In this document: positions 25,793-63,459 of the stretch, piece after piece
Layout of the letters: the number at the start of each line of letters is the position of its first letter
Position numbering within the stretch: position 1 is the first letter of the stretch
IMG/VR virus record: IMGVR_UViG_3300005973_000002
Reading direction: 5' to 3' (one strand)
Length of the DNA: 64,000 bases
Source of the DNA: a virus
Taxonomy: Duplodnaviria > Caudoviricetes
The notes under the pieces: generated by a model
The model's database searches: none
What the model was told of the DNA's origin: nothing
Seen by the model: only the letters and a program-made list of their open reading frames with translations
Program-made: the position numbers and the translations under genes

Positions 25793-26302
25793 ATGTCAAC
25801 AAATAAAAAAACAGATGAAGATTTGCTAGACGATTTTGAGTCTATGCTGTCAGATAAAATGGCAGAAGAAGACAAACCATATCAATATACGGAACAATCT
25901 TTTGACCCACAAGTGCCAGAAACAAGTTTTAAGCCAACACCAACTAAAGAACTTGATAAAAAAATCAACAAACAACTAAAAGACTTTAGTTCATTGCTTG
26001 ATTCTTTATCTTCACTTGAAGATAAAAAGAAGGCACTATGGAAACAGATTTATGAAAATTCTGTTACGGATCGCAAAAACGCATATATTTTGTTTGGTGA
26101 TCTCTATAAAGATGTTCACAACAATCCAAATGAGCATGCCATTCATGGCCCAACCTTAGCCAAGTATCTTGAACGAATGGAAAAATCAAATCAACAGCTT
26201 ATTAAACTTGCTGAAATGATTGATGATGTAGTTGAAGAAGAAGAAGATTTGCTTACTGATGAAGATTCTATTTACGACAGGATTCAAAAGGGACAAAGGT
26301 GA
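25793..26302 (+). CDS. Hypothetical acidic helical protein
   Basis: 169-aa ORF preceded by an ATAATTA motif; coiled-coil-like. Confidence 0.7.
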   Translation: MSTNKKTDEDLLDDFESMLSDKMAEEDKPYQYTEQSFDPQVPETSFKPTPTKELDKKINKQLKDFSSLLDSLSSLEDKKKALWKQIYENSVTDRKNAYILFGDLYKDVHNNPNEHAIHGPTLAKYLERMEKSNQQLIKLAEMIDDVVEEEEDLLTDEDSIYDRIQKGQR

Positions 26303-28386
26303 TGGCGTTTTTTCTGAAAAAATTGATTAAAGAAGAAGTAAGAAAAACTTTGCGATTGCTCACTGAGGGTATCGTCCACATTGACAAACTCAAGCCAGAA
26401 GAGCTTTTAGAGTTTCTTAGAGGGTGGAATTTAGATAAGGCCAGGTTCCATGTGTCAGAAAAAATGGATGGCAATTACATGGCTTTGGGGGTGGACAATG
26501 GTCAGTTTTACTTGAGAAGCAAAAGTAAAACATTTGAGTCTGCCGATGATGTCCCAAATATATTCTTCATGAACGACTTTAGGAAATACTTCAATCTGCT
26601 TCAGTCCATTCCTTGGAATGAAATTTTTGTTAAGATGGCTACAAAGTGGAATTTTGATTTTGACGGAACGTTTGAAATCGAGGGTGAGGCCATTCCATCG
26701 TTCGACCACAACATTGTTATTTATGATGAGGCAAAAATTGGGGATGGTATCTTTCTTATTTTTAATACAAAATCTACTATGGGCAAAGAAAAAAGTGGAA
26801 GAGTTCACAATCCAGAAATGTGGCTTGACCTTGCGCAAGAGGTTAACAAATACAGCTCAGTTAAATTCTTTTCTGTACCACAGGTAAGTTTAGACGACCT
26901 GGAATTTGATAACGATCTTATCGTAAATTTAGAAGCTCTTATTCAAGAACACGGTAACTTTTTAAAAAAGCCAGCCAGAACACAAGCTGCCAAGGAACTC
27001 AAAGCCAAACTGTTGGCGACAATAGCAGAGCTTGGAAAACAAGCCAAGAGGCAAGCTCTACAAGTACCAGTATCAAGCAAATTTGGCCCGGAAGTAGAGG
27101 GCGTTGTTATTTCTGGACCAGGGGGGAAATTAGTAAAAATTGTTGACACAGAAAAGTTCACTGCCAGAAAAGAAAGAAACTGGCATTTCATTAATCAACT
27201 AATTTCGGCCGAGCGTGATTTCAAAAAAAGGATAAAAGAAAACCCACAAGATTTGGAACTACATCTGCTTGAATGGCAAGAAGAAGTAGAGGACATCCAA
27301 AAAGACTTTGATAAAAATGGGCACAAATACATAACGATCCGAAAGAAATTTGAAGATACGCAAAATGGAATTGACTTTGCATTGGGCATGATAAAAGCGA
27401 TGAAAGATCGCCTTGATGCTGGGCAAACTTCTGAGGAGGTTATTGCTGCCTTCAACAATCGTCAAGTTGTTCCCGAAAATGCGAAATCGCTTTCTGAATC
27501 AGTTTTTATTACCGAAGCTGAACTCAATGAAGGTGGAAATGTTTTTGATGAGATGAATTCTGTAGTGCCAAAATCACTTCTTGAACCAAGTATTGAAAGA
27601 GCGATGGTATTAGCCAATTTGGATGGAATTAAATTTGAAATAGTTGGCAACAAAACTAAACCATTCTTCAATGACATTGACGTTGCTATTGATGCAACGG
27701 ATTTGCTGAATTACCTTGGTCTTCCTGAAGGTACTCAAGAATTTTGGGATGAGCTGAATACTCATCTGGCAAGATCTAACGTTGAAAAATATTCAATCAT
27801 CAAGGGCCTAAAGCAGTTTCATATTTTGGTTCCACTTATTGACAGTTCCGGTGAACAGGTTAGAGCTTTCTTACCAGATGGTGAAAGCAGAAGTGACGAA
27901 CCTGCGTTAATTCAAATTGATGTGTTTGTTGGAAACTTGCAGTGGATGAAAGATATCAATTCTGGTGCGCCAGAATCAAGCAAATACAAGGCATCGTATA
28001 GGAATATGTTACTTGCGTCAATAGCTTCAGTAGTTCAATGGAGCATAGAAGGCGATTCAGACAATGAGTATTTTCGTTATGTGATGAATTTCAGGGACGG
28101 ACTAAAGCGACAGAAGATCAAAGTAATTTCACCAAGTGGCAGAAGAAAAAAACCTAAAAAGGAAAAGCTATCGGACCAAGTAGTAACTTCAAACCCTGAT
28201 GATCTTGCCAAAATTCTTTTCGGCAAAGGTGTCAAATGGTCTGACATGAATTCATTTGAAGAATTATACAATCTTCTTACAAGTAAAAAATTTCGCTTTG
28301 AAAAATTTTTACCTGAAATCATCAAGGAATTTAGAACCTCGCTAGAAAAACAAGGCATGGAAGTTCCTAAACAAGTTTCTGAATGA
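26299..28386 (+). CDS. Fusion: RNA/DNA-ligase-like adenylation domain plus Pol-beta-type nucleotidyltransferase
   Basis: Ligase motifs I (SEKMDG), III (EIEGE), IIIa (FLIF), IV (EGVVI) and V (LVKIV). Second half has GGNVF..G..K..NDIDVAID..QIDVFVG (DxD plus third Asp). Confidence 0.7.
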   Translation: MMAFFLKKLIKEEVRKTLRLLTEGIVHIDKLKPEELLEFLRGWNLDKARFHVSEKMDGNYMALGVDNGQFYLRSKSKTFESADDVPNIFFMNDFRKYFNLLQSIPWNEIFVKMATKWNFDFDGTFEIEGEAIPSFDHNIVIYDEAKIGDGIFLIFNTKSTMGKEKSGRVHNPEMWLDLAQEVNKYSSVKFFSVPQVSLDDLEFDNDLIVNLEALIQEHGNFLKKPARTQAAKELKAKLLATIAELGKQAKRQALQVPVSSKFGPEVEGVVISGPGGKLVKIVDTEKFTARKERNWHFINQLISAERDFKKRIKENPQDLELHLLEWQEEVEDIQKDFDKNGHKYITIRKKFEDTQNGIDFALGMIKAMKDRLDAGQTSEEVIAAFNNRQVVPENAKSLSESVFITEAELNEGGNVFDEMNSVVPKSLLEPSIERAMVLANLDGIKFEIVGNKTKPFFNDIDVAIDATDLLNYLGLPEGTQEFWDELNTHLARSNVEKYSIIKGLKQFHILVPLIDSSGEQVRAFLPDGESRSDEPALIQIDVFVGNLQWMKDINSGAPESSKYKASYRNMLLASIASVVQWSIEGDSDNEYFRYVMNFRDGLKRQKIKVISPSGRRKKPKKEKLSDQVVTSNPDDLAKILFGKGVKWSDMNSFEELYNLLTSKKFRFEKFLPEIIKEFRTSLEKQGMEVPKQVSE

Positions 28387-29199
28387 TTAACGACGATAAA
28401 ACTGGTTGAAAACATCCTGCGTTAAGCCGTAATCAACCAAAACAGGAACTTCTCTGCCATTTCTATTGACCGCACCCCAAGAACTTATACGCATAATATC
28501 ACCAGAAGGCATTCCAAAATCTGCCATCATGGTGACAACATCGCTGAACAATTCTGATTCTTCAATTTCTTCATAGTTGTCAGGAACAGGCATTTTCCAT
28601 CCACGTTGACCTGTTCGATCAATCATGTAATTGTTAAGAGTGGCCATCCAACCATCAAACTTGTGACCAGTGAGCCGCTCCCAATCAGACTTTTTTAATT
28701 TTTTAGCTCGTTCCATTTCAATGTAAAGATAGTTGTCAGCATCATAGTCCTTGACTTCTGCAATTACATTGTAGCCAATGTGCGACACATCTACTTCGAT
28801 TTCGTTTTGCGCCTGTCCCTTTTTGTTGTTTGCAATCTTGACCACCGTGTTTGGATCTACGGCGAAAACAACACGTGCCGAGCCCCCACCAAGTTTGCCA
28901 AGATGCTCACGGGCATAAGCTACTCTTTTACGAAAGCTTGGCAGCGACTTAAATTCTTCAGTGTCAAATCCTTGAGGATAGTCTGCCTCATCAAGCCAAC
29001 CTTCATACAAAGGCTGTTCATGAAGTTCTTCAAGAGCTTCAGCAACCAAATGGCCTATCATTTCCCGTAAATCGTTTTCTGAAATGCTTTTTTCGCCTTC
29101 CTGTTCTTCATTGTCAAACAATAACAATTTTTCTTTGCCGCCAACTTTTACAGTTTTTTTATTGGCTGACTTTTGTTCTTTGGTGTGCCCATCAATCAT
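28387..29199 (-). CDS. Protein kinase-like protein
   Basis: LGGGSARVVF Gly loop, VVKIA lysine, QNEIE helix-C Glu, GDI..SWG catalytic region and LVDYG (DFG equivalent). Confidence 0.8.
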   Translation of the reverse strand: MIDGHTKEQKSANKKTVKVGGKEKLLLFDNEEQEGEKSISENDLREMIGHLVAEALEELHEQPLYEGWLDEADYPQGFDTEEFKSLPSFRKRVAYAREHLGKLGGGSARVVFAVDPNTVVKIANNKKGQAQNEIEVDVSHIGYNVIAEVKDYDADNYLYIEMERAKKLKKSDWERLTGHKFDGWMATLNNYMIDRTGQRGWKMPVPDNYEEIEESELFSDVVTMMADFGMPSGDIMRISSWGAVNRNGREVPVLVDYGLTQDVFNQFYRR

Positions 29200-29438
29200 A
29201 GCTCATCCTTTTCGTACGCTCTAAGAGCGTACGCTTTATGTTCCATTTCTTCAACAGTTTTTTTTAAATTTTCAATGAATCTCATTGCCATGGTAAAGTC
29301 TTTGTCTTGAAGCTTTTCTCTTATATAACCAAACAATTCTTCAACATCCTCTATTTCAGACGTGACTCCAGGTGCGCCAAGTTGTTCTTCGATAGTTTCT
29401 CGTATTATGTTCCGAAGTTCTGATTTTTTGATTTTCAT
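29196..29438 (-). CDS. Small acidic protein with MKIKKSELRNIIRE leader (putative head internal protein)
   Basis: ATG at 29438 overlaps the upstream TGA (ATGA); leader motif shared with several genes. Confidence 0.7.
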   Translation of the reverse strand: MKIKKSELRNIIRETIEEQLGAPGVTSEIEDVEELFGYIREKLQDKDFTMAMRFIENLKKTVEEMEHKAYALRAYEKDEL

Positions 29439-29845: not shown

Positions 29846-29857
29846 GAAGTTAATTAT

Positions 29858-30603: not shown

Positions 30604-30608
30604 GATTT

Positions 30609-30896: not shown

Positions 30897-31598
30897 TTAG
30901 CGAGGACGGCCCCTACCAATGCCCATGCCTCGGGCACCAAGGCCACCAATATCCTTGCCCATCTGCACAAGACGTTGTCCTGGGCCCATCATAAACGATT
31001 TTTGCGCCTTTTCAATGTCAGCTGCCTCACGGCCTGCGGAATAAACTCCAGAGCCACGTGGTACCGCCTGAAAGAGCTTGTCAGCAGCATCATTCAATGA
31101 TTGCGAAAGGCTTTGGAGGGTGTAAGCGGCAGCCGCAAATGGTTTGCTTAGCTCTTCTTTTGTTGCCGAATCAACTTCGGCAACTTTCTGAAGCTCATAA
31201 AGATCATAAAGTTGATCAATGTAGCTATTGAGTGCTTGTTCCACTGCTCTTACATCGGTAAGTTTTGTTGCAGCAAGATTTTTTCTTGCTTTTTCAACAC
31301 CTTTTGCCATCTGCATTACGGCCCTGGTGTCTCTTTGTTGCGCTTTAGCCTGCGCTTTTTCGCCTTTTTCCTTACCCATTCTTTCCAAGTCTTGAACGCC
31401 TAGTTTTTTAAACGGACCGAAAAATTCAAGCAGTTGTTTCTTGCTGTTGATTTTCTTGTGCTCTTTAAGAAATGGTGTATTGTATAAGCAAACTAAAGCA
31501 TAGTGCGCAGCCTGTTTCTGTTCTAGTGCAATGGAGGTCGATTCTCTTTTGACAGACTCGCTGACAAGCTTACGAAGTTGTGATTTTTTGATCTTCAT
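30897..31598 (-). CDS. Helical protein with MKIKKSQLRKLVSE leader (putative head internal protein)
   Basis: Leader motif; LLE site before a K/Q/A-rich coiled coil. Confidence 0.7.
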   Translation of the reverse strand: MKIKKSQLRKLVSESVKRESTSIALEQKQAAHYALVCLYNTPFLKEHKKINSKKQLLEFFGPFKKLGVQDLERMGKEKGEKAQAKAQQRDTRAVMQMAKGVEKARKNLAATKLTDVRAVEQALNSYIDQLYDLYELQKVAEVDSATKEELSKPFAAAAYTLQSLSQSLNDAADKLFQAVPRGSGVYSAGREAADIEKAQKSFMMGPGQRLVQMGKDIGGLGARGMGIGRGRPR

Positions 31599-31660: not shown

Positions 31661-32389
31661 TTATCGCCCTCTTTGGCGTTCATATTCCTTAAAAGTTTCA
31701 ACAAAAACTCTATTGAGTTCAATAAGCTTTTGCGAAATTTGATTCAAGATCTTACCAAGAGCCTTTAGTTCATTTAGGAAGACAGAAACTGAAGTAACGT
31801 TTCTAGCATTTTTAAGCATTTGCTCTCCTTCGATTGCAATGCTTTTTACTTCACTGGCAGTAATCAAAATATTTCGAGCGAGATTTCTTCTTCCTACTGG
31901 CGTATCAGGATTCAAGTTCATTTCTGCCATTGGTATCTTTTTGAGTCCTGTCAATATAAGAACTTCCGTATAGCTTTTTTGCACTTTTGGCAATTCTTTT
32001 TGTTGAAGACCTTCAAGATTTTCATAAATTTGGATGAGCTTTGTTTTGAAGTTTTGTCGTGTATCGGCAGTCATAGCCTGATTGGCCAATCTCATTATAA
32101 TATTGAGTCGAGCAACTATATCACCGTAATCTTGGTATACCCTGTCCAGAATATTTTCTCTGCCTTCTTGCGTGCCAATGTCTGTTGTTTCAGATGTTGA
32201 TTGTTGCTTGAACTTTTGTCGAAGACGTCTTTTCCTTTCAGCAGGAGTTTCAGGTTTGGCCGGCACATCTCCCACAAAAGCTGGGTCGGTAGGTTGAGTT
32301 TGTGGAATAGACCGAGGTTCTGCTTCAGTAAGCACTTCAAGCAGAACACCTTTGATCATCTTTCTAAGTTCGACTTTGTTCAATTTCAT
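31661..32389 (-). CDS. Helical protein with MKLNKVELRKMIKGVLLEVLTE leader (putative head internal protein)
   Basis: Leader motif plus LLE/LTE sites. Confidence 0.7.
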   Translation of the reverse strand: MKLNKVELRKMIKGVLLEVLTEAEPRSIPQTQPTDPAFVGDVPAKPETPAERKRRLRQKFKQQSTSETTDIGTQEGRENILDRVYQDYGDIVARLNIIMRLANQAMTADTRQNFKTKLIQIYENLEGLQQKELPKVQKSYTEVLILTGLKKIPMAEMNLNPDTPVGRRNLARNILITASEVKSIAIEGEQMLKNARNVTSVSVFLNELKALGKILNQISQKLIELNRVFVETFKEYERQRGR

Positions 32390-32853: not shown

Positions 32854-33858
32854 ATGAGCAAGGGTTTAGATGTTGGTACATCATTTGTAATTCTTTCCTC
32901 TCATGGAAAAGATGGTACTGTTGAATACAGTGAAATTCGTGATGCGTTTTACGTGATAAAACCATCAACTCCAATCGCCACCAAAATGATTGAAAAAGGT
33001 TTGAAAGGCAAAACATTCGTAAAAGACGCAGACGGTTCATTTGTTCTTCTTGGACAGGATGCTATTGAGAAAGCGGTCGAGAGAAATGATAGCGCAAAAA
33101 GGCCAATGTATCGTGGTGTCGTTTCTGCCAAAGAGAAGGATGCTCGACGAGTTCTTTCGTTCCTTCTTAAAGAAGTGGTAGGGAAAGCCAAGAAAAAGGG
33201 AGAGAAGCTTGTTTTTTGTGTGCCAGCACAGCCTGTAGACCAAGCAGATGATGAATTTGATGTTGGTTATCATGAAGACGTTGTGACAAAAATCTTATCC
33301 GAGCAAGGTTATGATTGTCGTGCTATTAATGAAGCAGAAGCTCTCTGTTATTCCGAGCTTGAAAATGATGATTATACTGGTGTTGCTCTTTCTTGGGGCG
33401 CAGGAATGGTGAATTGCTGCGTAATGTTGAATGGCGAACCAGTGCTTACCTTCTCAACAACCCGTTCTGGTGACTGGATTGATCGTATGGCAGCAGTTGC
33501 AACCGGAGAGCCAGATTCTATCGTGCAGGCCGAAAAAGAAAACGGCGAGTTTACTATTGGTCAAGCTAACGAAAATCAGGTTCTTGAGGCTGTAGCTGCA
33601 AGCTACGTTCGTTTGATTGATTACACTACAAAACAGTTAGCTGCACATTTGTCAGTTTCTTCAGCACTTCCAAAGTTCAAAGACCCACTTCCAGTTGTTG
33701 TGGCTGGTGGCACTTCAAAAGCAAAGGGATTTGTCGACATGCTTGAGAAGAAACTTAAAGAAAACAATTTCCCTGTTGAGCTAAAAGAGGTTCGCCATGC
33801 AGAAGATCCTCTTCGTGCAGTATCTCGTGGATGTTTAATTGCTAGTGAATTGTTTTAG
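32854..33858 (+). CDS. Actin-fold ATPase (MreB/MamK/ParM/FtsA superfamily)
   Basis: Phosphate-1 GLDVGTS, connect-1 NEAEAL, phosphate-2 SWGAG and adenosine VAGGTS motifs in the expected order. Confidence 0.85.
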   Translation: MSKGLDVGTSFVILSSHGKDGTVEYSEIRDAFYVIKPSTPIATKMIEKGLKGKTFVKDADGSFVLLGQDAIEKAVERNDSAKRPMYRGVVSAKEKDARRVLSFLLKEVVGKAKKKGEKLVFCVPAQPVDQADDEFDVGYHEDVVTKILSEQGYDCRAINEAEALCYSELENDDYTGVALSWGAGMVNCCVMLNGEPVLTFSTTRSGDWIDRMAAVATGEPDSIVQAEKENGEFTIGQANENQVLEAVAASYVRLIDYTTKQLAAHLSVSSALPKFKDPLPVVVAGGTSKAKGFVDMLEKKLKENNFPVELKEVRHAEDPLRAVSRGCLIASELF

Positions 33859-38567: not shown

Positions 38568-38873
38568 TTACTTGTCAGCTTTTGCTTTTTCTGCAAGGCT
38601 GTTAAGCCATGCAGTCAAGTTCTCATCAACAATAAAATTCCCGACTTCCTTACCTAACTCTTGTAACATTGCTACATCTGCTTCTTCAGACGGTTCAAGC
38701 CAATAGTGTAATGCGTACCAAGCTTGTACTGCTTCATCCATAGATTGAATAAAAGTATCGAGAAGCTCTTTTCCTTCTCCTCCTAAGTCTTGTTGTAGAA
38801 TATCGTTTCCGCCAACCTGTTCATTGATGGCTTCTCGGATCATTTCTCTAAGTTGTGACTTGGTTATTTTCAT
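38568..38873 (-). CDS. Acidic protein with MKITKSQLREMIREAINE leader
   Basis: ATG at 38873 with GGAG SD and an upstream CTATTTAAG motif; the longer ORF start at 39035 is unlikely. Confidence 0.75.
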   Translation of the reverse strand: MKITKSQLREMIREAINEQVGGNDILQQDLGGEGKELLDTFIQSMDEAVQAWYALHYWLEPSEEADVAMLQELGKEVGNFIVDENLTAWLNSLAEKAKADK

Positions 38874-46955: not shown

Positions 46956-48878
46956 TTAAATTATACCCATGTCAAGAACAGTTACGGTTGCGTAGAAGTC
47001 ATTTCTGACCATCTTCTTACCGTATCGGGTCATGACGCCCTTACGTGGAGTAAAGTCTTCCTGAGCGTAGATAACTGGAGTAAGGATAAGTGGCACGTAT
47101 GGTGCGTAGATGAATCCTGACTCAAGGAAGGTGTTACCCTTCAATCCGATCAAGAGCTTGTTGCTTGGGAAATATGGGTCTTTGTAGACCGTGTAACGGT
47201 TGTTCAAAGTACCAACTGCCTCTGCTCCGATTACCATGTTGTCACGAACCTGACCGTCAGCATCTACTCTGTAGGAAGGCTTGTAGGCAACAAGGTGCTC
47301 AAGGATGGTGCAGACATCTGGGGAAGTAACAATGAAGTTACCGGAACCACGGAGTGTCTTACGGTGAATGGTGTTTGCTGCGTCCGTAACAGTCTCAAGG
47401 AGGGTCTGGTACCACTCTTGAATGTTTACGAATGCCATTGGGCCTGGAGAAAGCGTGCTGCTCTGGAGAGCCTCTGCGCCGGTGAACTTGTTGACAAGCT
47501 TACCTGGTGCTCGGGACCAGTAGAGGTTTGCTGCTCCTGCCTGGGTGAGAAGGTCGTTCAAGATTTCACGGTCAATGTCAAGCGTAATCATCTCGGAGAG
47601 AATGTTTGTAAGCTCAACTTCTACATCGATTGAGTAGAATGCTGTGAGATCCTGAGCCATTTCTGGCGACCAACGAGCCCTGAGCTTACGGGTTTGTGCC
47701 GTAACGCTGGTGGACTCAATGCGGATGTCAACCTCTGGGATACGTGGGCTTGCGTCGACTGCGAAGTCAGACTCGAAGCTTGGAATCGTAAGAGTTGAAC
47801 CGTCAGAGTTTACGCTGAGTGCGTCTGCGATAGCTGCCGAAGCAGTTACTGCATTACCGACAGCTCCATCAGGTGCTGGTGCGGTACCTGCATTTGCAAG
47901 ACGAACTACGTGAAGCACGTGTGAACCGTTAAGCGGATCTGGTGTGAAGATACCAGTTGCTGAGTTCCAGTTACCACGCTGGTTCATCTGACGAAGGTTA
48001 AGCACGCCTCGACCACCTTGATACTTCTCTCCCCACTCAACAGCAGAGTTGGTTGCTGCACCGAAACCGGTGAGTGCAATCTGGTTGAGGTTGTTGAGGT
48101 CAGCACCGTTGATCTTGTCGGTAAACTCAGATGCGCTGACAAACACGAAGCAGTAATCAAGTACGCCATCGGTAAGGTCGTTTTCAACACGAGTATCGTA
48201 CATGACGAAACGTGCGTTGAGACCTTCGAAGTCATCAGCGGTGTCTACTGTGCCACCTGGGGTCCAAATGGAGCCAGATGCCCAGTAACCAACAGAGTCG
48301 GTTGAACCAGAAAGGAAACGGCTCTGCTTGTGAACCTTGGAGTAACCATGACCTACAAGGTCATACTGTCCACCGGTTGCAAGAGAACCAGAACGTACGC
48401 CAACACCACGTGGGTTGTTGTATACGGAATCCTGGCTGGTGTAAGTTGATGGATCTACAACGCTAGTTGTTGCAAACTGGTTAGCTGCGGTTCCTGCGTC
48501 ACCACCAACCGAGCTGCCGTAAGTGTAATCGAGGTAGAAAAGAAGACCGGTTGGAAGGCTCATTGGCTGAACCGACACGATCTCGTTTGAAATCAAACCT
48601 GCGAAAACACGGCGAACGATTGGGAATGCAACGTTTGTGAAACCTGCAATCTTCCCGCTTGAGGTCAAAGAAGCACCACCAAGGGACAAAGCGTTGGTTT
48701 CCTTGAGAAGCTCAGCTGCCTGGTTCTCAAGAAGACGTGCCATGCCATCTCGGTTCATGCCTTTTAGGCCCTCAAGAAGACCAGTTGCTCCCCACTTCTT
48801 TACGAGTCGTGGTGAGTCTGCACCAAGCGAGCGACGGTGTACGCCTTCTGCGAGTTGCTCTAAAGTGAAAGTCTTCAT
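46956..48878 (-). CDS. gp23: Major capsid protein (T4 gp23 family) with large insertion
   Basis: AFPIVRRVF..IVSVQPM..PTGL.FYL; AQTRKLRARWSPEMAQDL..E..LDIDREIL; RKTLRG.GNF; GFIYAPYVPL; F.PRKGVMTRYG motifs. Confidence 0.97.
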   Translation of the reverse strand: MKTFTLEQLAEGVHRRSLGADSPRLVKKWGATGLLEGLKGMNRDGMARLLENQAAELLKETNALSLGGASLTSSGKIAGFTNVAFPIVRRVFAGLISNEIVSVQPMSLPTGLLFYLDYTYGSSVGGDAGTAANQFATTSVVDPSTYTSQDSVYNNPRGVGVRSGSLATGGQYDLVGHGYSKVHKQSRFLSGSTDSVGYWASGSIWTPGGTVDTADDFEGLNARFVMYDTRVENDLTDGVLDYCFVFVSASEFTDKINGADLNNLNQIALTGFGAATNSAVEWGEKYQGGRGVLNLRQMNQRGNWNSATGIFTPDPLNGSHVLHVVRLANAGTAPAPDGAVGNAVTASAAIADALSVNSDGSTLTIPSFESDFAVDASPRIPEVDIRIESTSVTAQTRKLRARWSPEMAQDLTAFYSIDVEVELTNILSEMITLDIDREILNDLLTQAGAANLYWSRAPGKLVNKFTGAEALQSSTLSPGPMAFVNIQEWYQTLLETVTDAANTIHRKTLRGSGNFIVTSPDVCTILEHLVAYKPSYRVDADGQVRDNMVIGAEAVGTLNNRYTVYKDPYFPSNKLLIGLKGNTFLESGFIYAPYVPLILTPVIYAQEDFTPRKGVMTRYGKKMVRNDFYATVTVLDMGII

Positions 48879-48933: not shown

Positions 48934-51195
48934 TTAGTCAACCTTTTTGATCCCGGCAAGTACCTGCCAGCGATTTGCGGATTGGCCATTGGAATCATGA
49001 CCTGCCTGTGGCTGAGCGGCCTCAGTGAGGTTTGCGCTCCCTGGTTTGGTCACCTTAGAGGAAGAACCACCCAATTTGCGGGAAGCTGATGCATGCTCGT
49101 CGAGCCTGCGCTTAATTTTTGTGTAAATAGCCTTTGTCTCGGCTACGGATGCACCCTTGTCAAGGTGCTCGACAATTTGCTGTAGAGCCTTCTTGGTGAG
49201 TGCTTTTTCAGAGAGTGCTCTCTGAAGGAATTTGCTGTAGTAAACTGTCTTTGAAGTGAACAAGTTGGTCTCTGCGAGCTGTCTGTTCAATCCTTCAACC
49301 TGCTTGCCTCTTGCTTCAAGAAGCTTGACAGCCTTTGCGAGCTTCTTTTCAAGAAGTCTGTTCTTACGTGCGAGGTGTTTGAACTTACGGGATTCCATGT
49401 GCATTGCCTCTTCCATCTCATCTGCAAGAACCATGTCTTCTTCTGCGGATTCCATATCGTCTACGTCGCCACCAAGGTCAACATCCATTTCGTCATCCTC
49501 GTCATCAACGATTTCAACTTCCTCATCCTCAGCACCTACATTGAGATCAACGTCTACGTCAAGATCATCAACACCAAGTGCTGCCAACTCTTCTTCAACC
49601 TCTGGCGGAAGGTCTACCGAAAGAACAAGATCTGCGGCATCATCAACACCAAGGTCATCATCTTCCATCATATCCATTTCGTACATGCTTTCTTTCATTT
49701 TAAGATTGCTCTTATGTTTCCTGTCCTCAAGGTTCTCATGGGAACCGTCATCACCACCTTCTGGTTCGGCATCTTCCCATGACTCTGCTTCTTTGCCGTC
49801 GGAAGCTTCTCTAAGAGCATCAAGCTTACGTTTGATATTTTCCTTGCGGATTGCCCTTACTGCCTCTGCAAGTTCGGCGTCATCAACTTCAAACTCTGCG
49901 ACTGGTTCTTCGTTAGTGTCACCAAAGCCAGCTGCACCTTCTGCAACGTCATCATTTGCATCAGTGTTTGCGTCTGCGCTGTTCTCATTCATTGAACGAG
50001 TAACGGTTTGATCCTGATCTTCCTCATCAACAACAGGCTCGGCCTCATCCCAAGGACGATCGTGCACATCGCCACTAATTGCATCTGCATCAACAGAGCC
50101 AGCGGTTCCACCCTTCATCTCTTCGGCAAGCTTGCCCTCCTGAGCGACTTCAACGTCTTCGGGACCACCAAGATGTGGATCAACACCAGATACATCAGCT
50201 GCGTGACGTGAATATTCGTCATCAACTTTCAAACCGGACTCGCCAGTGTGAGCAGAATCCTTAGCGAGGTTTTCATCTTCCTCGAAAAGTTTTGCTGCAA
50301 ATTCTTTGAGACTTGTCATATCGGTACCTTTACCTTGTTCTTTCTTCAAGTAACTATTATCCAAACCTGCCTCTTTCAGCTTTAAGAATAAAAATTCTAA
50401 CTTGTTTTCGTTGAGACGAGCTTGTTTGTTAGTAATTAGGCCCCGATCTCGCATTCCATCCAAAGCTTCGACTAAATCAAAAAGTCTCTTTTTAAGAGAA
50501 CTTCTCGTGATGTCAGAAACTCGTCCTGAGAAATAAGCTCGATCAATCCGTTCAGAAATATTACTAAGGACCCTATTGTATTCTTTATAAGAAACCGCCT
50601 CTGTTGGAAGCGGTGCAACTTCCTCTTCTTCTTCAGTTGGCTCACCAGCAGCTGGTTGAACTGGTGCTGCTGGACCAGCAGTTTCTGGAGCTGGCACAGC
50701 AGCTGGCTCTGTCGGCTGAGTTGGCTGTGCACCTGCTGGAGCACCTGCTGCTTGGAGTGGTGCCTCTCCAGGCGTAATTGTAACCTGATCCGAGTCAGCG
50801 TCTACAAAAAGATCTTCGAAATCAACAACGATCTTTCCATCTTCATCTGGCATAGAAGCACCAACCAAATCCTCACCGCCAGGTGCAGGAACTGGGGCGT
50901 CCACTGTTTGATCGCCAAGCTCTCCTGCAACCGTTTGAGTCGGATCAGTTGTGCCGGCTGGAGCAGTGGTTGGTTGTGTACCACCCATACCCTGAGGGTC
51001 TGGTGGTAGTTGAGGCGAAACCTCCTCTTCATCTTCCTGTTCAAAGAAGAAGTCCGAGGAACCCATAGCTTCCTTCGCAATTACTTTTTTAATGTAAGGG
51101 GTGAGTTCTTCAATTAAGGCTTTCTTCGCATCGGCCTCTGCGATTTCCTTAAGCTTTTCAGCGTCCCTTACTGCTTCTGTAAAAAGATCTGTCAT
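48934..51195 (-). CDS. Prohead core scaffolding protein (gp22-like), very acidic
   Basis: Lies immediately upstream of the capsid gene; D/E-rich, C-terminal coiled coil, ends NRWQVLAGIKKVD. Confidence 0.8.
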   Translation of the reverse strand: MTDLFTEAVRDAEKLKEIAEADAKKALIEELTPYIKKVIAKEAMGSSDFFFEQEDEEEVSPQLPPDPQGMGGTQPTTAPAGTTDPTQTVAGELGDQTVDAPVPAPGGEDLVGASMPDEDGKIVVDFEDLFVDADSDQVTITPGEAPLQAAGAPAGAQPTQPTEPAAVPAPETAGPAAPVQPAAGEPTEEEEEVAPLPTEAVSYKEYNRVLSNISERIDRAYFSGRVSDITRSSLKKRLFDLVEALDGMRDRGLITNKQARLNENKLEFLFLKLKEAGLDNSYLKKEQGKGTDMTSLKEFAAKLFEEDENLAKDSAHTGESGLKVDDEYSRHAADVSGVDPHLGGPEDVEVAQEGKLAEEMKGGTAGSVDADAISGDVHDRPWDEAEPVVDEEDQDQTVTRSMNENSADANTDANDDVAEGAAGFGDTNEEPVAEFEVDDAELAEAVRAIRKENIKRKLDALREASDGKEAESWEDAEPEGGDDGSHENLEDRKHKSNLKMKESMYEMDMMEDDDLGVDDAADLVLSVDLPPEVEEELAALGVDDLDVDVDLNVGAEDEEVEIVDDEDDEMDVDLGGDVDDMESAEEDMVLADEMEEAMHMESRKFKHLARKNRLLEKKLAKAVKLLEARGKQVEGLNRQLAETNLFTSKTVYYSKFLQRALSEKALTKKALQQIVEHLDKGASVAETKAIYTKIKRRLDEHASASRKLGGSSSKVTKPGSANLTEAAQPQAGHDSNGQSANRWQVLAGIKKVD

Positions 51196-51213: not shown

Positions 51214-51744
51214 TTAGGCGCCACCACCAGAAGGAGTCGAGGTGCCAAGACCAAGAGAGCCAATGGTTTGACGACCAACGTTTTCTCTTGTGTCGGATGG
51301 AGAAGCTAATCCATCTCCACCAAAGGGCCCGCCGCCGCCTTGGGCAGCTTGAGTTACACCAACGCCTTCTGCTGGAATATCAGCTGGGTTTTGACCTTCG
51401 GCTGGAACTGCGATGTTTGGAGCATACGGCGAACCTGGTAGACCACCACCGCCAACCACAACCTCATCGAGATTTGGTGCAAGCTCATAATCTCTGCCAT
51501 AGTTTGTTGGGAGATCCCAGTAAGCAATTGCCTGAACATCGGTACCTCTTCCAGAATCGATCGGGTCTGAAGCATCAAGCGGACCAATCAAAACTGAATT
51601 AGCCTGTTCCTCCAATAGAGCATCGTTAATTTCATTACGGTAAATTGGAGAACCTGGGTGTGCAGTTTGTAGTGATTCGGTATCAGAAGAACCGTTTCCA
51701 CGGGTAGTGGATGGGACATCAACTTTGAATTGTTCGAATGGCAT
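51214..51744 (-). CDS. Gly/Pro-rich putative head protein
   Basis: 176-aa ORF in the head operon. Confidence 0.55.
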   Translation of the reverse strand: MPFEQFKVDVPSTTRGNGSSDTESLQTAHPGSPIYRNEINDALLEEQANSVLIGPLDASDPIDSGRGTDVQAIAYWDLPTNYGRDYELAPNLDEVVVGGGGLPGSPYAPNIAVPAEGQNPADIPAEGVGVTQAAQGGGGPFGGDGLASPSDTRENVGRQTIGSLGLGTSTPSGGGA

Positions 51745-51798: not shown

Positions 51799-52290
51799 TT
51801 ACTTATTCTCATACTTTCCGAATGCTAAAGCTGCCCAATGATTTTTTGGACGGTCGCCACTAAGAGCATTTAGTTGGGCCTGATCAATCTGTTCTACCTC
51901 TGGACTTGCTTGTTCGCCGAGATAAACACCACCTCCGCCGCCCATTTCTGTTCCAAGTTGCGATTGTAGGGTCGTCATTGCCGTGTCTGCAAAAATACTT
52001 TCCATCATTGCAGCTTGTTTTGGGTCACCTTGAGCGGTCTGCATAGCTGCAATACGAGAAAGTTCCCTAAGTCTTTCATTTGGTGTCATATGACCAACAG
52101 AAGAGAATGGTGGTTGCGCCGTGGTAGAATTTTTAGTAACCTGTCCTACAAAATCATTTGGAGCAACCCTAGCTGTTGCAGCAACTGGTTGAACATTTTC
52201 TTTGATTACATTGTCAAATGCACCTTCTGTTATTAATTCTCTGATGCACTCTTTTAAAATTTTCTTGAATTGTGTTCTATTAAGCTTCAT
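51799..52290 (-). CDS. Putative head assembly protein with MKLNRTQFKKILKECIRE leader and HWAALAF tail
   Basis: Carries both motif types; located in the head operon. Confidence 0.65.
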   Translation of the reverse strand: MKLNRTQFKKILKECIRELITEGAFDNVIKENVQPVAATARVAPNDFVGQVTKNSTTAQPPFSSVGHMTPNERLRELSRIAAMQTAQGDPKQAAMMESIFADTAMTTLQSQLGTEMGGGGGVYLGEQASPEVEQIDQAQLNALSGDRPKNHWAALAFGKYENK

Positions 52291-52362: not shown

Positions 52363-52857
52363 TTAAAGTCGATAACCATATTTGTTACCAATGCCCTGCA
52401 ATACTTTCTGCCAAGTCTTTTCATCAATGAATTCAAGGACGTCTTCTAGCAATTCATAAGTTGAAAGGTTTGCTTCGGTTCTAAACCGATCAAGTATCAT
52501 TTGACGCTTTCGAACAGTGGAAGCCTCTTGTAATTGATTTCTAACGGCCCGCTTTACCATTTCTTTAAGCTGCGTTTTTGAAATACGTACAGGTTTTTTT
52601 GATTCATTTTTCGGAACGCAGTTAGGTACTTCTTTCCCGTTTTGGGTTTTCATACCGACCATTTCGTAACCATCCCAGCATGGATTATCTTCACCACTTT
52701 CTTGCAAGCCGGATTCCTTAACAGCACCCCAAGCTTTTTTTGCTGCGGTTTCTTTGCTGTCGCCCCCGTCACGTGCACTGTGATAAACTGCCGTCCACTG
52801 ACTGTAGTCGTCTTCTGGTAGATCTTGTACGCTTTTTGGATATTTACTCTTTGGCAT
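52363..52857 (-). CDS. ChaB-like domain plus PCWxGY..NCVP module plus internal leader-like motif
   Basis: LPE....W..VY.SA......AAKKAWGAVK (ChaB-like); NPCWDGYEMVGMK..GKEVPNCVP; RISKTQLKEMVKRAV. Confidence 0.7.
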   Translation of the reverse strand: MPKSKYPKSVQDLPEDDYSQWTAVYHSARDGGDSKETAAKKAWGAVKESGLQESGEDNPCWDGYEMVGMKTQNGKEVPNCVPKNESKKPVRISKTQLKEMVKRAVRNQLQEASTVRKRQMILDRFRTEANLSTYELLEDVLEFIDEKTWQKVLQGIGNKYGYRL

Positions 52858-53424: not shown

Positions 53425-53425
53425 T

Positions 53426-54280
53426 TTAGCAAAGCCCTTCCTTTTCACTTTGAAGAATTAACTTTTCGAGCTTGGTAAGATATTCTTCTTCTTTAGCATC
53501 AACCATTTCTTCGTTGTCAACATCTCGATCAATATCTATGCGACTCTCTAATTCCATACCACGAGCCGATTGCTTCATTGCTTGTCGTTTTTTAACAACC
53601 TTGGCTTGTTTTGATCTTTCTCTTTCCTTTTCAAGATGCTTTTCAAGTTGAGATGGACTCATCCTCCTGTCAGCCCCTGTAGTAGATCGACTTTTTTCAC
53701 CAAGATCCATTTCTGTTAATTTTTTTCTAATGATCTTGCGGACCATTTCTTTTAGTTGCGCTTTCGTAACCTTCATTGCTGCATCCTCTTGCAATTTTTC
53801 CTGAAATTTCTTAATGAACCTTGCTACACTTTGTTTTGCCCCTAATCCAGCAACAAATTCTTTGGTAAGAATTTCTTTGCCGTTTTTCTTTATTGAAACT
53901 ACAAACTTGACATTATCAATTCCCATAACGCTCACAAATTCAGCTTTAACATCAGCTTTAAAATCGTTAGAAATTTCTACAGTGGCAAGTGCAGAGCCAC
54001 CATATGCATTATTTCCGAAAACTTTTTTCAGATGCTTGGAAAGCGACAGCATCTTATGATGCCTATCCCTTTTACGCTTGGAATCTCGACGTATTTGAGC
54101 AAGTTCATCAGAAAAGGTTTGGCCGTGCCTTCCCCTGTAGGCCGAAGCCTGTCTACGAGAAGCCTCACGGCCAGCTTCTATTCCCTTTTTGATTGTGGGA
54201 TAAAATACAGGAGATACCTCAGTCAATTCTTCTTTGACTAAGTCAGAAATGAATCCTTGTATTCTATCCCTATCATTCAC
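53426..54280 (-). CDS. Basic/acidic protein with N-terminal and internal leader-like motifs
   Basis: ISDLVKEELTE near the N-terminus; internal MKVTKAQLKEMVRKIIRKKLTE. Confidence 0.7.
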   Translation of the reverse strand: MNDRDRIQGFISDLVKEELTEVSPVFYPTIKKGIEAGREASRRQASAYRGRHGQTFSDELAQIRRDSKRKRDRHHKMLSLSKHLKKVFGNNAYGGSALATVEISNDFKADVKAEFVSVMGIDNVKFVVSIKKNGKEILTKEFVAGLGAKQSVARFIKKFQEKLQEDAAMKVTKAQLKEMVRKIIRKKLTEMDLGEKSRSTTGADRRMSPSQLEKHLEKERERSKQAKVVKKRQAMKQSARGMELESRIDIDRDVDNEEMVDAKEEEYLTKLEKLILQSEKEGLC

Positions 54281-57400: not shown

Positions 57401-57443
57401 CCCTGGCTGAAACTCCTGCACTTTTGAAATTAATTTGAGTCAT
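54414..57443 (-). CDS. gp18: Tail sheath protein, copy 2
   Basis: FKSAGV..RVI.L; GTAVKGPAFVP; PPSVAVLGA..PWFAPAGFARG; INPLVSF..VWGQRTL..RVNVRRL motifs. Confidence 0.95.
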   Translation of the reverse strand: MTQINFKSAGVSARVINLTGPTAIQPVGIPAGVIGTAVKGPAFVPVTFATTQDFTVVFGLPEDNKANGPLAVGEWLRNRQAATYLRVLGAGQAKRREQSGENQGKVQGAGFVVGDEQPQAGGALDNNMYANEGGPLGRLYFLNTFMSEANGSGFLTDAGLPGEGTPIVRAVLLAASGVIITLSSSLSASTMVPGAAPASNLVATEENKSGSFLGSVNLSGGRQEFVMFLNGHKGTDPLFPNVITASFDVDAPNYLGSALNTDPFNLEKAGYLLYADYSVHPNLATVTGSSVVDTTTDEVVGGGLAAGFEPIAFLATGSLSRNSGSTVVPSYENWEDRYTTPKSPWIVSQRLGGKPRNLFRIHLLDDGAWGNDQVKWSVENIVPAINDVNPYGTFDLLIRRFNDIDKKREATEAWRGLSLNPSSDNYIARVIGDLNTFYNFDAAEGNQKIQTTGEYPNQSKVIRVEVSPDVENVELDASALPLGFRGIPHLVTSGTAPLAPLGEALADSVLITGSSDPAHNVVQMPVQFRRSLNLGSVTSRRVDKGLYWGIQFTRQLSVEEPNSTTEPERTIANFTKFFPKHQTDWLNVVVSDNEGVADAAETGILDADRFNNNLFSLENIRIVRDPITNLADTTQLVSWSYVRAGNVATSGSVRALTADDLSDSSVRQVAKFSGIIQGGFDGVRIFDEDTANLTNLAIIEEMDNTNRGVSNGPTVKAYDTALDIIADDTETDIQLLTIPGIRHPQITDDALQLIEERFDAMYIMDLPEYDTTNQLVTASSQDLSVRFTANQHRDRGLNTSFGAAYFPDVILRDTLNNTIRQVPPSVAVLGAFGLNDAVGFPWFAPAGFARGALQTTEESTLPLSRDNMDALQDVKINPLVSFAGSDGVVVWGQRTLLARDSALERVNVRRLLIQLRRDVRRVARRFVFEPGRAETLARFSQLVNPILKRVQDQRGVERFLVRIDTTTTTQADIENRTVRGKIFLVPTRTLEFLSIDFVVTNQGNFVSSQ

Positions 57444-60400: not shown

Positions 60401-60559
60401 GAAATCAGCAAATGATCCAACAGTGAATGGGACGAATGCCGGACCACGTTCGGCACCACCAATTACACCAGCTGGAACGCCTACTGGCTCCTGAATCTGG
60501 GCTGTTAGATCGATTTCTCTATCGAAGAAGCCTGGAAAGTTAAAAATTTGGCTAACCAT
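57500..60559 (-). CDS. gp18: Tail sheath protein, copy 1
   Basis: FNFPGFFDREIDL; AERGPAFVP; PWFAPAGFNR; INPIVKFP..SINVVRML motifs. Confidence 0.95.
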   Translation of the reverse strand: MVSQIFNFPGFFDREIDLTAQIQEPVGVPAGVIGGAERGPAFVPFTVGSFADFRTRFGDLNPRYAAPYAVDRFLENRTALTFIRILGAGANETSSDIETTRLQGTVKNAGFRLSGTLSSVNPATTNGAVQFLVARHVVTASEALGMPMFSDNNSLLTSGSNDEVYLTRGVIFAASGTRIQILNGDDSNEQYSSFVDDVATVNSASREFKIVISSSAGASFGNDDGFPGVRILTASLNPSSDNYFAKLMNTDPERFSDEKHVVYADYAVDAELANVGTGSGDVAIASGSINTSSTSGNTSLPFLEAFGRFDTRFTTPKTPWFISQPYGKTEYDLFYIEAVDDGAYANQRFKISITNLLKSSNVRDKHGTFTLVVRTFDDTDAEPQILEQFNNLSLDPDSDNYIAKVIGDKRARFNFDAEAEEDRRLLTTGKFENRSRYIRVFVSDQVAQKKIPEDAVPFGFRGTAPLSTNSLLSDTAGSAALARLALSGATDPRLAWSIVPPLPYRYKVTRGNAATNPGFEGAPGATELTDARYFWGVKTSRNTNALNPNIVNLPNQLVNSYTKFAGIEKLDVLVTGSAKDDFNNNKFTLARVALGNASLNDVTSSAAIHMKEAAYLRNRTPDGFEYKITDEISGLDRITFATLYQKGTSAADFNKFTNFAKFTSILYGGFDGVNILDKNAATFNDRSTSTETAGSEVGNAASTFTSPGLNENVNGFGTSNQTVFAYRRASEIITDAIASNINLLTIPGQRDPLVTDFAADEVRDFGLAFYAMDLPAYDSDGNRIWDNQTSRFIDIEQTANNFEQRALDNEFAGAYFPDFVLEDDVNRRRVTVPASVGALAALGFNDRVAYPWFAPAGFNRAALDFVQLTKTRIKQPERERLFDIHINPIVKFPGESGFVIFAQNTLEQAESALGSINVVRMLNELKRRIIEIGNRAIFEQITPEIYTELDRRFRSVLNLISARAGIERFDVIVDGRNNTNLDRENNRVNARIVLVPTRAVEFIAIDFIITRSGVSFDAV

Positions 60560-62637: not shown

Positions 62638-62661
62638 AACAATATATATGATTTTGTTTGT

Positions 62662-63459
62662 TCAGATCCACGTAACATCATAATGTTTTCTAGCTACATC
62701 TCTCGAATAACCATAATCCAACAAAACTACACGGCCATCGGCAGTTTTGCCCCAGTGGTCTAACACGATCATATCGGCAGCCATTGCACCCTTATCAGAA
62801 ATTAATTCAATAGCAGCTTGTACCATTGGGTGTTCGGGTAATTCAGTTTGATATTCAATAACTTTTTCAATAGCCTCAAGTTGGCTTTTGTAGTATTCAA
62901 TATTTGTTTTATCGGCCGTATCTTCAGAGTCAAGTCGATTGATCTCTTCGATATACCTCTGTCGCAATTTGCGATGTTTCTCAATGGTATTTTCAAGTTC
63001 GCCCTCAAAAACAAGTTTAAGAACCTGGCGAAAATCAGTGAACGAAAACCCAGTTAAATCTTTAAATTCATTTATATTTTTTATTGGTCGAACCAACTCC
63101 GAAACAATCCACGAGTAATCATCGGCCGCATCATAGACTTCGGCCACAATTGGTTTTACATCTGGATCGGTAGACAAATCTACTTCATATTTGTTTTGCG
63201 CCTTCCCTCTCTCAAAACTACGAGGAGAACGTGGAAGAGGTTGGGCTAGTTGGGCTAGTTTGAGCACAAACCTATTGCTTAACAAAAATACAAGACGTGA
63301 AGTTCCCTCCCCTAATACTTGAGTACCAGTGTTTATAAGGTACAAGGCCCTGTCAAAGTGATCATCTATCTTTTTAAATTCAGACCACTTGAAATTACTC
63401 CTAATTTCATGAAGTGTTTGAAAAACCATGAAGCGTATTTGTTCTTTCAGTCTCATCAT
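62662..63459 (-). CDS. Protein kinase-like paralog
   Basis: LGEGTSRLVF, VLKLA, QNKYE and DHWGKTADGRVVLLDYG motifs. Confidence 0.8.
   Translation of the reverse strand: MMRLKEQIRFMVFQTLHEIRSNFKWSEFKKIDDHFDRALYLINTGTQVLGEGTSRLVFLLSNRFVLKLAQLAQPLPRSPRSFERGKAQNKYEVDLSTDPDVKPIVAEVYDAADDYSWIVSELVRPIKNINEFKDLTGFSFTDFRQVLKLVFEGELENTIEKHRKLRQRYIEEINRLDSEDTADKTNIEYYKSQLEAIEKVIEYQTELPEHPMVQAAIELISDKGAMAADMIVLDHWGKTADGRVVLLDYGYSRDVARKHYDVTWI

What the first reader, a model, noticed from the sequence alone, without database searches (positions are those of the whole stretch)
26299..63459. Second leader family MK(I/L)xKxxLxxxIxE, also used internally as a domain separator
N-terminal copies: 29438 MKIKKSELRNIIRE, 31598 MKIKKSQLRKLVSE, 32389 MKLNKVELRKMIKGVLLE, 38873 MKITKSQLREMIRE, 52290 MKLNRTQFKKILKE. 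Internal copies: RISKTQLKEMVKR (52363 gene), MKVTKAQLKEMVRK (53426 gene), ISENDLREMIGHLVAE (kinase 28387). Variants: FLKKLIKEEV (26299), LKEQIRFMV..LHE (62662), and a C-terminal LNEIKNLIKSVVFE in 25163. Inference: an amphipathic helix that co-assembles with the scaffold core. Internal copies suggest genes assembled by fusing leader-plus-domain cassettes into polyproteins.
Basis: partly seen in the sequence, partly recalled or inferred. Interest (0 to 1): 0.72.

Follow-up and report, generated by a model that had tools for sequence, protein, structure and literature searches.

The report
Shared head-targeting-like leader on phage proteins
Seven proteins of this uncultured giant T4-like phage carry the same roughly 22-residue helix, usually at the very start. 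Thousands of otherwise unrelated proteins of related phages carry it too, and it most likely works like phage T4's tag that loads proteins into the virus head, though nothing has been measured.

Summary
The core observation is real. Five N-terminal and two internal copies of MK(I/L)xKxxLxxxIxE score 18-43 bits against a profile built only from other phages. No reversed or shuffled decoy reached 12 bits.

Of the listed variants, only the RNA-ligase-like N-terminus (26299) is a marginal half-copy. The copies at 28387, 62662 and 25163 are not supported.

The full motif has about 22 residues and contains up to three (I/L/V)xE triplets, ending in E-G. That is the cleavage pattern of T4-type prohead proteases.

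- One bearer, p163 (51799-52290), is a conserved head-module gene. In relatives it follows the S77 protease gene in 40 of 45 loci and precedes the scaffold and the Gp23 capsid gene.
- The leader occurs on at least 29 unrelated protein bodies in the clade.
- It matches 3127 protein clusters worldwide.
- It heads tandem arrays of up to 30 small genes in marine T4-like jumbo phages.
- No Pfam family or paper covers it.

Best reading (about 0.55): a functional analogue of the T4 capsid targeting sequence, not a sequence relative. Gene fusion at leader boundaries is shown; polyprotein cleavage is untested. This scan already noted the same leader on other DNA (e1-5388800).

The parts
29370..29438 (-). 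Leader copy at the N-terminus of an 80-aa acidic protein (gene 29196-29438)
   Evidence: 29.5 bits with the non-window profile. The ATG overlaps the upstream stop as ATGA.
31530..31598 (-). Leader copy at the N-terminus of a 233-aa basic protein (gene 30897-31598)
   Evidence: 17.8 bits. BLASTP shows it shares only the first 12 residues with its neighbour 31661-32389.
32321..32389 (-). Leader copy at the N-terminus of a 242-aa basic helical protein (gene 31661-32389)
   Evidence: 20.8 bits. Four homologues keep the leader, then a variable linker. The model shows helix 5-22 at low confidence.
38805..38873 (-). Leader copy at the N-terminus of a 101-aa acidic protein (gene 38568-38873)
   Evidence: 36.4 bits. 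A GGAG lies about 10 nt upstream of the ATG.
52222..52290 (-). Leader of p163, the conserved head-module protein (gene 51799-52290)
   Evidence: 42.6 bits. K9, K13, E14, C15, E18, E22 and G23 are invariant or nearly so in 35 orthologues. Helix 5-22 has pLDDT 91-95.
52522..52590 (-). Internal leader copy at residue 92 of the 164-aa ChaB-like fusion protein (gene 52363-52857)
   Evidence: 27.2 bits. The first codon is GTA, not a start. The part downstream is 52-55% identical to stand-alone leader-first genes in L001 and L002.
53708..53776 (-). Internal leader copy at residue 169 of the 284-aa protein (gene 53426-54280)
   Evidence: 28.2 bits. It begins with an ATG preceded by AGAGGA 7 nt upstream, so internal initiation is possible. 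The L001 homologue has two full copies.
26314..26373 (+). Marginal half-copy (model positions 8-21) at the N-terminus of the 695-aa RNA-ligase-like protein (gene 26299-28386)
   Evidence: 8.8 bits in the full scan and 13-14 bits as an isolated peptide. Weak Pfam RNA_ligase match.
51214..51744 (-). p176, a Gly-rich conserved protein between p163 and the scaffold; context only, no leader
   Evidence: Its position is conserved in relatives. No leader match.
48934..51195 (-). Acidic 753-aa scaffold-like (gp22-position) protein; the presumed docking partner of the leader
   Evidence: Conserved position directly upstream of the capsid gene. Conserved N- and C-terminal helices. Its C-terminal RWxxLAGI motif is echoed by p163's WAxLAF.
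46956..48878 (-). Gp23-type major capsid protein with a conserved L-x-E at the T4 cleavage position
   Evidence: Pfam PF07068, E 2.5e-78. The N-terminal alignment with T4 gp23 places L-K-E at the site homologous to T4's L-T-E cleavage site.

Best explanation
The motif is a portable leader of about 22 residues: M-K-[LI]-T-[KR]-[ST]-[QE]-L-[KR]-x-[ILM]-[IV]-[KR]-E-x-[LIV]-x-E-[IL]-[LI]-x-E-[GS]. It forms one helix, with a basic first half and up to three (I/L/V)-x-E triplets in the second half, and is followed by a flexible linker.

I propose that it works like the capsid targeting sequence (CTS) of phage T4 internal proteins. In this reading the helix docks the protein onto the scaffold core while the prohead is built. 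The phage's T4-type S77 prohead protease then cuts after one of the Glu residues (E14, E18 or E22). That cut releases the mature body inside the head, for later ejection, or lets core fragments leave.

p163, the conserved bearer between the protease and scaffold genes, would be a core component comparable to T4 gp67/gp68. The small variable bearers would be internal or ejected cargo. Internal copies arise when neighbouring leader-first genes fuse.

Shown here: the motif itself, its statistics, its portability, its helix, its genomic association and the gene fusions. Inferred: docking to the core, cleavage, packaging and ejection.
For: 1. The motif is non-random and selected at the protein level. 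Decoys give 0 hits at 12 bits or more against 88 real hits. Codons at conserved residues vary freely, for example six Leu codons at position 8.

2. It sits at the initiator Met in 64 of 88 clade hits. Among the best 150 database hits, 34 of the 36 single-copy proteins have it at residues 1-2.

3. It is attached to unrelated bodies. There are 29 BLAST clusters among 87 tails, and the adjacent genes 31598 and 32389 share only the first 12 residues.

4. Glu residues 14, 18 and 22 are conserved, each two positions after an aliphatic residue, and residue 23 is usually Gly or Ser. In the marine set, L-x-E ending at residue 22 occurs in 30% of leaders against 1.9% per position in the bodies. This matches gp21 specificity, which cuts C-terminal to Glu (PMC9026906).

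5. The head machinery is of the T4 type. The window holds a Gp23 capsid protein and a scaffold-like protein. Relatives carry an S77 protease. The same 461,086-bp contig that holds the window's protein P0151 also holds an S77 protease, P0257. The capsid protein keeps L-x-E at the site homologous to the T4 gp23 cleavage.

6. A leader-bearing gene starts within 2 kb downstream of the protease gene in 40 of 45 relatives. p163 also shares a C-terminal WAxLA motif with the scaffold.

7. p163 is modelled with helix 5-22 (pLDDT 91-95) and then 33-70 disordered.

8. Marine relatives carry tandem arrays of 10-13 small leader-first genes with unrelated bodies, 22-30 per genome. This resembles the polymorphic internal-protein loci of T-even phages (Repoila 1994, as cited in PMC12373910). 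All 10 such records that are at least 54% complete carry the S77 protease.
Against: - There are no proteomic, cleavage or packaging data for any bearer, and no cultured phage with the full leader was found.
- The leader has no detectable sequence similarity to the T4 CTS. The profile gives about 0 bits, and a profile search of the T4 genome finds nothing.
- Copies also occur internally, and at C-termini in Mel-JY01 and P-HM2. A purely N-terminal address would not need these.
- (I/L/V)-x-E could be conserved for helix or packing reasons rather than for cleavage.
- The hydrophobic moment is not above shuffles.
- In the window's own sub-lineage the protease gene is not next to p163.
- Twenty to thirty cargo species per genome would be a large load for one head.
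Confidence: 0.55

Rival explanations
1. The helix is a common docking or oligomerisation handle for some other partner, not the prohead core. Candidates are a shared chaperone, a modifying enzyme, a host target, or a bundle formed among the bearers themselves. The Glu residues would then serve helix chemistry rather than cleavage.
For: The repeating doublets of aliphatic residues every four positions fit a packing helix. Internal, tandem and C-terminal copies exist. Most arrays lie far from the head genes. The bodies lean acidic, with median pI 5.06, unlike the basic T4 internal proteins.
Against: The one universally conserved bearer sits between the protease and scaffold genes and shares a C-terminal motif with the scaffold. 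The leader family tracks phages with an S77 protease and Gp23. No conserved partner gene was seen next to the arrays.
Confidence: 0.2
2. There is no address function. The motif is simply the best-conserved first helix of one old, fast-diverging paralogue family that expanded by tandem duplication.
For: Tandem arrays are what duplication produces. BLAST at E 1e-3 can miss old homology among small helical bodies. Both folded bearers are all-helical.
Against: The bodies differ in length (43-417 residues after the leader start), charge (pI 4.1-9.9 in the window) and architecture. The same leader sits on a ChaB-like fusion, and a half-copy sits on an RNA-ligase-like enzyme. The sharp drop in conservation after residue 16-23 recurs in every family.
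Confidence: 0.15
3. Sub-claim of the first reader: proteins with internal copies are true polyproteins, and the prohead protease cuts them apart at each leader.
For: Fusion and fission at leader boundaries is seen. Stand-alone 80-84-aa cassettes in L001 and L002 correspond to the C-terminal part of the window's 164-aa gene. Database proteins carry 2-3 copies, and the internal copies usually still begin with Met.
Against: There are no cleavage data. The internal copy at 53776 has its own Shine-Dalgarno-like AGAGGA, so internal initiation or plain tolerance of fusion explains it equally well. One database protein has two leaders only about 8 residues apart, which is not a domain joint.
Confidence: 0.2
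4. The motif is an artefact of composition, or a nucleotide-level feature of translation starts (A-rich early codons).
For: The leader is rich in Lys and Glu, and its second codon is Lys.
Against: Shuffled and reversed controls give no hits. Codons are freely synonymous. Truly internal copies exist. Scaffold, capsid, sheath and protease orthologues give no match of 5 bits or more.
Confidence: 0.02

Closest known systems
Capsid targeting sequence (CTS) of phage T4 internal proteins IPI, IPII, IPIII and Alt (Mullaney and Black 1996; reviewed in PMC9026906 and PMC3012670)
   Same: A short N-terminal peptide shared by otherwise unrelated proteins of a phage with a gp21-type protease, a gp22-type scaffold and a gp23 capsid. 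It starts with MK and ends in aliphatic-x-Glu, the protease's cleavage pattern.
   Different: It is 14-23 residues long rather than 10-19. The profile finds no sequence similarity to MKTYQEFIAE. It has up to three tandem (I/L/V)xE triplets and also occurs internally. One copy sits on a conserved head-module gene. Packaging and cleavage are not shown.
Polymorphic internal-protein loci of T-even phages (Repoila et al. 1994, EMBO J, as cited in PMC12373910)
   Same: Runs of small, non-homologous, fast-changing genes that share only the N-terminal leader.
   Different: The scale is much larger: 22-30 genes per genome in marine relatives and 3127 protein clusters at E 1e-3 or better. The bodies lean acidic, whereas the classic internal proteins are basic. 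The functions are unknown.
N-terminal propeptides of head and ejection proteins of giant phages phiKZ, 201phi2-1 and SPN3US (PMC5694885)
   Same: Jumbo-phage head proteins with protease-removed propeptides that are inferred to target them to the prohead. Conserved N-termini occur on diverged paralogues.
   Different: Those propeptides are mostly over 100 residues long and are cut at (S/A/G)-x-E. They are not one shared short motif across dozens of unrelated proteins.
T4 prohead core proteins gp67 and gp68
   Same: Small proteins encoded beside the protease gene that assemble in the core with the scaffold. This is the likely role of p163.
   Different: In T4 these genes lie upstream of gene 21, whereas p163 lies downstream of the protease gene. 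No homology was detected or specifically tested.

Membership tests
T4-type capsid targeting sequence (functional class) | Short N-terminal peptide shared by otherwise unrelated proteins of one phage | tested here: met
   Five N-terminal copies in the window. 64 of 88 clade hits lie at the initiator codon, and the tails fall into 29 BLAST clusters.
T4-type capsid targeting sequence (functional class) | Ends in the prohead protease cleavage pattern, aliphatic-x-Glu | tested here: met
   Among 79 unique leaders, E14 occurs in 61, E18 in 50 and E22 in 58, each two positions after I, L or V. Residue 23 is G or S in 51. Only the sequence pattern was tested.
T4-type capsid targeting sequence (functional class) | Phage builds heads with an S77 (gp21) protease, a gp22-like scaffold and a gp23 capsid protein | tested here: met
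   Gp23 and a scaffold-like protein are in the window. S77 is present in relatives. The S77 protein P0257 lies on a 461,086-bp contig, the same length as the longest contig holding the window's P0151. The protease is not in the window itself.
T4-type capsid targeting sequence (functional class) | Leader is removed by the protease and the protein is found inside the mature head | not testable with these tools
   No virion proteome exists for any bearer, and no cultured phage with the full leader was found.
T4 CTS (sequence family, MKTYQEFIAE) | Detectable sequence similarity to the T4 leader | tested here: not met
   The profile scores the T4 leader at about 0 bits. A profile search of the whole T4 genome finds nothing at E 1 or better.
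Prohead core or scaffold-associated protein (for p163) | Conserved gene inside the protease-scaffold-capsid module | tested here: met
   The gene order protease, p163, p176, scaffold, capsid recurs across relatives. 40 of 45 loci with a protease have a leader gene within 2 kb downstream.
Prohead core or scaffold-associated protein (for p163) | Physical association with the scaffold | tested here: inconclusive
   The only hint is a shared C-terminal [RK]WAxLA[GF] motif. No binding evidence was obtained.
Pfam PF25734 RelB_like_antitoxin | Score above the curated cut-off (27 bits) | tested here: not met
   Scores were 14.3 and 11.9 bits on the leader regions of p163 and the 164-aa protein. Ten strong multi-copy bearers gave no hit.
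Amphipathic helix | Helical, with a hydrophobic moment above that of shuffled sequence | tested here: inconclusive
   The helix is predicted with confidence. The moment of 0.20-0.42 is not above shuffles, because aliphatic doublets every four residues give a broad hydrophobic stripe.

The most novel reading that the evidence does not exclude
The leader is a universal head-loading address with a built-in protease site. It lets a very large clade of uncultured T4-like jumbo phages package dozens of unrelated, fast-evolving proteins per virion, as an injected effector arsenal far larger than T4's three internal proteins. Fused multi-leader genes would then be true polyproteins, cut apart inside the prohead by the S77 protease.
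Probability: 0.3. Interest if true: 0.8.

Novelty: new variant of a known kind. Interest (0 to 1): 0.62.

Why it matters
If the reading holds, one short tag marks the packaged and probably injected proteins of a large, uncultured group of aquatic T4-like jumbo phages. More than 3000 protein clusters, with no Pfam family and no paper, would become a ready-made catalogue of candidate anti-defence and host-takeover proteins. The tag would also be a second natural protein-packaging handle beside the T4 CTS.

The reading also suggests that p163 is a new conserved prohead core component. Even if the targeting idea fails, a 22-residue module shared by thousands of unrelated phage proteins still needs an explanation.

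Tried and rejected
- Complex prediction of the scaffold (alignment A2) with p163 (alignment A3) returned 'no answer', score 0.00. I use it neither for nor against binding.
- Searches for a known family covering the leader found only sub-threshold noise: Pfam on window bearers, Pfam on ten strong database bearers, PHROGs and the ESM Atlas.
- A profile search of T4 and RM378 found no copies.
- tblastn of a 30-residue leader against 50,697 phage records gave one non-significant hit. No cultured phage with a virion proteome could therefore be used.
- Context look-ups of two multi-copy proteins gave contigs of only 1.4-2 kb.
- A search for an enriched upstream 7-mer, as a shared late promoter, found nothing convincing.
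- The leader profile finds nothing in scaffold, capsid, p176, protease, sheath or p417 orthologues. The idea that the scaffold holds cryptic copies is rejected.
- The model of the 32389 family has mean pLDDT 61.5, too low for a fold search.
- A literature search for immuto phage virion data found none.


Full report
**What the window is.** The window comes from an uncultured T4-related jumbo phage.
- It encodes a Gp23-type major capsid protein at 46956-48878 on the minus strand (Pfam PF07068, E 2.5e-78).
- It also holds two tail-sheath paralogues, a baseplate J-like protein and glycosyltransferases.
- A 753-aa acidic, partly coiled protein sits directly upstream of the capsid gene, in the position of T4 gp22.
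- The nearest cultured relatives are distant. Flavobacterium phage immuto shares 45% capsid identity.
- No whole genome is held. The window's protein P0151 lies on a 461,086-bp contig.

**The observation.** All five N-terminal copies and two internal copies exist as described, all on the minus strand.
- The five N-terminal copies start at ATG codons. The one at 29438 overlaps the upstream stop as ATGA.
- The internal copy in the 164-aa gene begins with GTA, so it is truly internal.
- The internal copy in the 284-aa gene begins with an ATG that has AGAGGA 7 nt upstream.

**Is it more than chance?**
- K and E make up only 6.7% and 7.3% of the window's proteins.
- A leave-one-out matrix without the initiator Met puts five of the seven copies above all 200 residue-shuffled proteomes, and two more (32389 and 53776) above all but 1-2.
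- A profile built only from other phages' sequences scores the seven window copies 17.8-42.6 bits. Across the window plus 80 related loci (about 1.1 Mb, six frames) there are 88 hits at 12 bits or more, against 0 in reversed and 0 in shuffled decoys.
- Codons at the conserved residues vary freely: six Leu codons at position 8, and both Lys and both Glu codons. Selection therefore acts on the peptide, not on the DNA or mRNA.
- The listed variants fare worse in the full profile scan: the RNA-ligase-like N-terminus (26299) matches only the second half of the motif at 8.8 bits, and the kinase-like 28387, 62662 and the C-terminus of 25163 all stay below 3.5 bits. Scored as isolated peptides they give 13-14, 6.6-8.8, about 0 and 3.6-5.8 bits.

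**Anatomy of the motif.**
- It holds three Glu residues, at positions 14, 18 and 22. Each lies two positions after an aliphatic residue, and a Gly or Ser usually follows.
- AlphaFold2 with a 35-sequence alignment models p163 with helix 5-22 at pLDDT 91-95. The helix breaks at G23, and residues 33-70 are disordered.
- The 32389 family also shows helix 5-22 and then a linker, at low confidence.
- The hydrophobic moment is not above shuffles. The helix has a broad aliphatic stripe rather than a classic amphipathic face.

**Genomic setting in relatives.** Eighty IMG/VR loci were fetched with the capsid protein.
- They show a conserved module: S77 (gp21-type) protease, p163 with the leader, Gly-rich p176, scaffold, capsid.
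- A leader-bearing gene starts within 2 kb downstream of the protease gene in 40 of 45 loci, at a median of 411 nt.
- In p163 orthologues the leader is the best-conserved part. K9, E14 and E18 are invariant, and K13, C15, E22 and G23 are at least 90% conserved.
- p163 ends in [RK]WAxLAF, which echoes the scaffold's C-terminal RWAxLAGI. That fits a core protein touching the same partner.
- The capsid protein keeps L-x-E followed by small residues at the position homologous to the T4 gp23 cleavage site.
- In the window and its two closest relatives the protease gene is not in this module.
- An S77 protease, P0257, lies on a contig of the same 461,086-bp length and the same contig count as the window's own protein. 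The genome therefore very likely has one elsewhere, next to thioredoxin and Cpn60 genes.

**Portability.**
- The 87 bodies behind the leader fall into 29 BLAST clusters. The largest, with 44 members, is the p163 orthologues.
- The adjacent window genes 31598 and 32389 share only their first 12 residues.
- The window's bearers range from pI 4.1 to 9.9 and from 80 to 284 residues.
- The C-terminal cassette of the 164-aa gene (leader plus about 70 residues) exists as separate 80-84-aa genes that begin with the leader in L001 and L002. L001 also has the fused form.
- The L001 homologue of the 284-aa gene has two full copies.
- Fusion and fission at leader boundaries are therefore real.

**Distribution beyond the clade.**
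- The 32-position profile finds 3127 cluster representatives at E 1e-3 or better among 1.84 billion.
- Among the best 150, 34 of the 36 single-copy proteins carry the motif at residues 1-2. Many others have 2-3 copies, and the internal copies usually still begin with Met.
- The 80 loci read hold 281 copies, in tandem arrays of up to 12-13 small genes with unrelated bodies.
- Three large marine records hold 30, 27 and 22 copies.
- Of 20 such records of 73 kb or more, 14 carry an S77 protease, including all 10 that are at least 54% complete. Twelve of the 20 carry a Gp23 match, mostly enlarged proteins of 596-670 aa.
- Flavobacterium phage immuto has shorter variants on three proteins. T4 and RM378 have none.
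- No Pfam family covers the motif, and no paper in the library holds its strings.

**Mechanism.** The best-supported reading is a functional analogue of the T4 capsid targeting sequence.
- In T4, 10-19-residue N-terminal propeptides give unrelated internal proteins affinity for the core.
- The T4 internal proteins co-purify with gp22.
- gp21 removes the propeptides by cutting after Glu (PMC9026906, PMC3012670).
- T-even internal-protein loci are polymorphic sets of genes that share only that leader (PMC12373910, citing Repoila 1994).

The present leader has the same logic and the same kind of head machinery, and one bearer sits inside the head module. It has no sequence similarity to the T4 leader, and nothing about packaging or cleavage has been measured. 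I put this reading at about 0.55. The rivals are:
- a docking helix for another partner (0.2);
- a single diverged paralogue family (0.15);
- a composition or translation artefact (0.02, refuted by the controls).

The polyprotein sub-claim is possible (about 0.2). Internal initiation or mere tolerance of fusion explains the data equally well.

**Relation to earlier notes of this scan.**
- After I had found the marine arrays, a look-up showed that the scan had already reported the same MKITKRQLRRIIKEE leader on another genome, with the same reading (e1-5388800).
- Another agent reported a first, different leader family in this genome (e1-5318580). I did not test that one.

**Verdict.** The core observation is confirmed and the weaker listed copies are mostly rejected. 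This is a new variant of a known kind, namely a new, very widespread CTS-like leader family.

Noticed in passing
window 32854-33858 (+): A 334-aa protein matches Pfam Volactin (PF25216, an archaeal actin family) end to end at E 1.6e-64. It is an actin-like gene in a T4-like jumbo phage, directly beside the leader genes.
   Followed up: no
window 48934-51195 and 51799-52290; loci L001-L079; L087, L089, L091: The scaffold and p163 both end in a conserved [RK]WAxLA[GF] motif. The scaffolds of immuto, Mel-JY01 and RM378 end in a similar KLAGI/RLAGL motif. This may be a shared capsid- or portal-binding tail.
   Followed up: partly
window 54414-57443 and 57500-60559 (-): Two tandem tail-sheath paralogues of about 1010 aa each. 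The pair recurs in relatives.
   Followed up: no
window 45878-46771 (-): A GIY-YIG endonuclease gene lies directly downstream of the capsid gene, in the same place as segD after gene 23 in T4. GIY-YIG genes recur at that spot in many relatives.
   Followed up: partly
One appears split into a 94-aa and a 138-aa ORF.
   Followed up: no
L225 and L226 (contigs carrying P0257): In the window's sub-lineage the S77 prohead protease gene has left the head module. It sits beside thioredoxin, a cytidylyltransferase-like gene and a Cpn60 chaperonin gene.
   Followed up: partly
window 52363-52857 and 52867-53448 (-): The 164-aa and 193-aa proteins carry small modules: a Cys-containing CWDGY stretch and a DIDNDGDID, EF-hand-like stretch. 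The same modules occur together in longer phage proteins (phrog_22379, phrog_4359, phrog_38880).
   Followed up: no
window 52246-52248 (codon 15 of p163); alignment A3: A Cys at leader position 15 is conserved in at least 90% of the 35 aligned p163 orthologues. Other bearers have E or A there.
   Followed up: no
records G009 and G021 (behind L105 and L137); L004, L006: Some relatives carry two tandem full-length Gp23 paralogues, or extra capsid-like fragments downstream of the capsid gene.
   Followed up: no
L225 5926-7077 (+): A 383-aa protein near the relocated protease starts with a helix of the LKVLIESLVEQ type. This may belong to the other ('first') leader family reported for this genome.
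   Followed up: no
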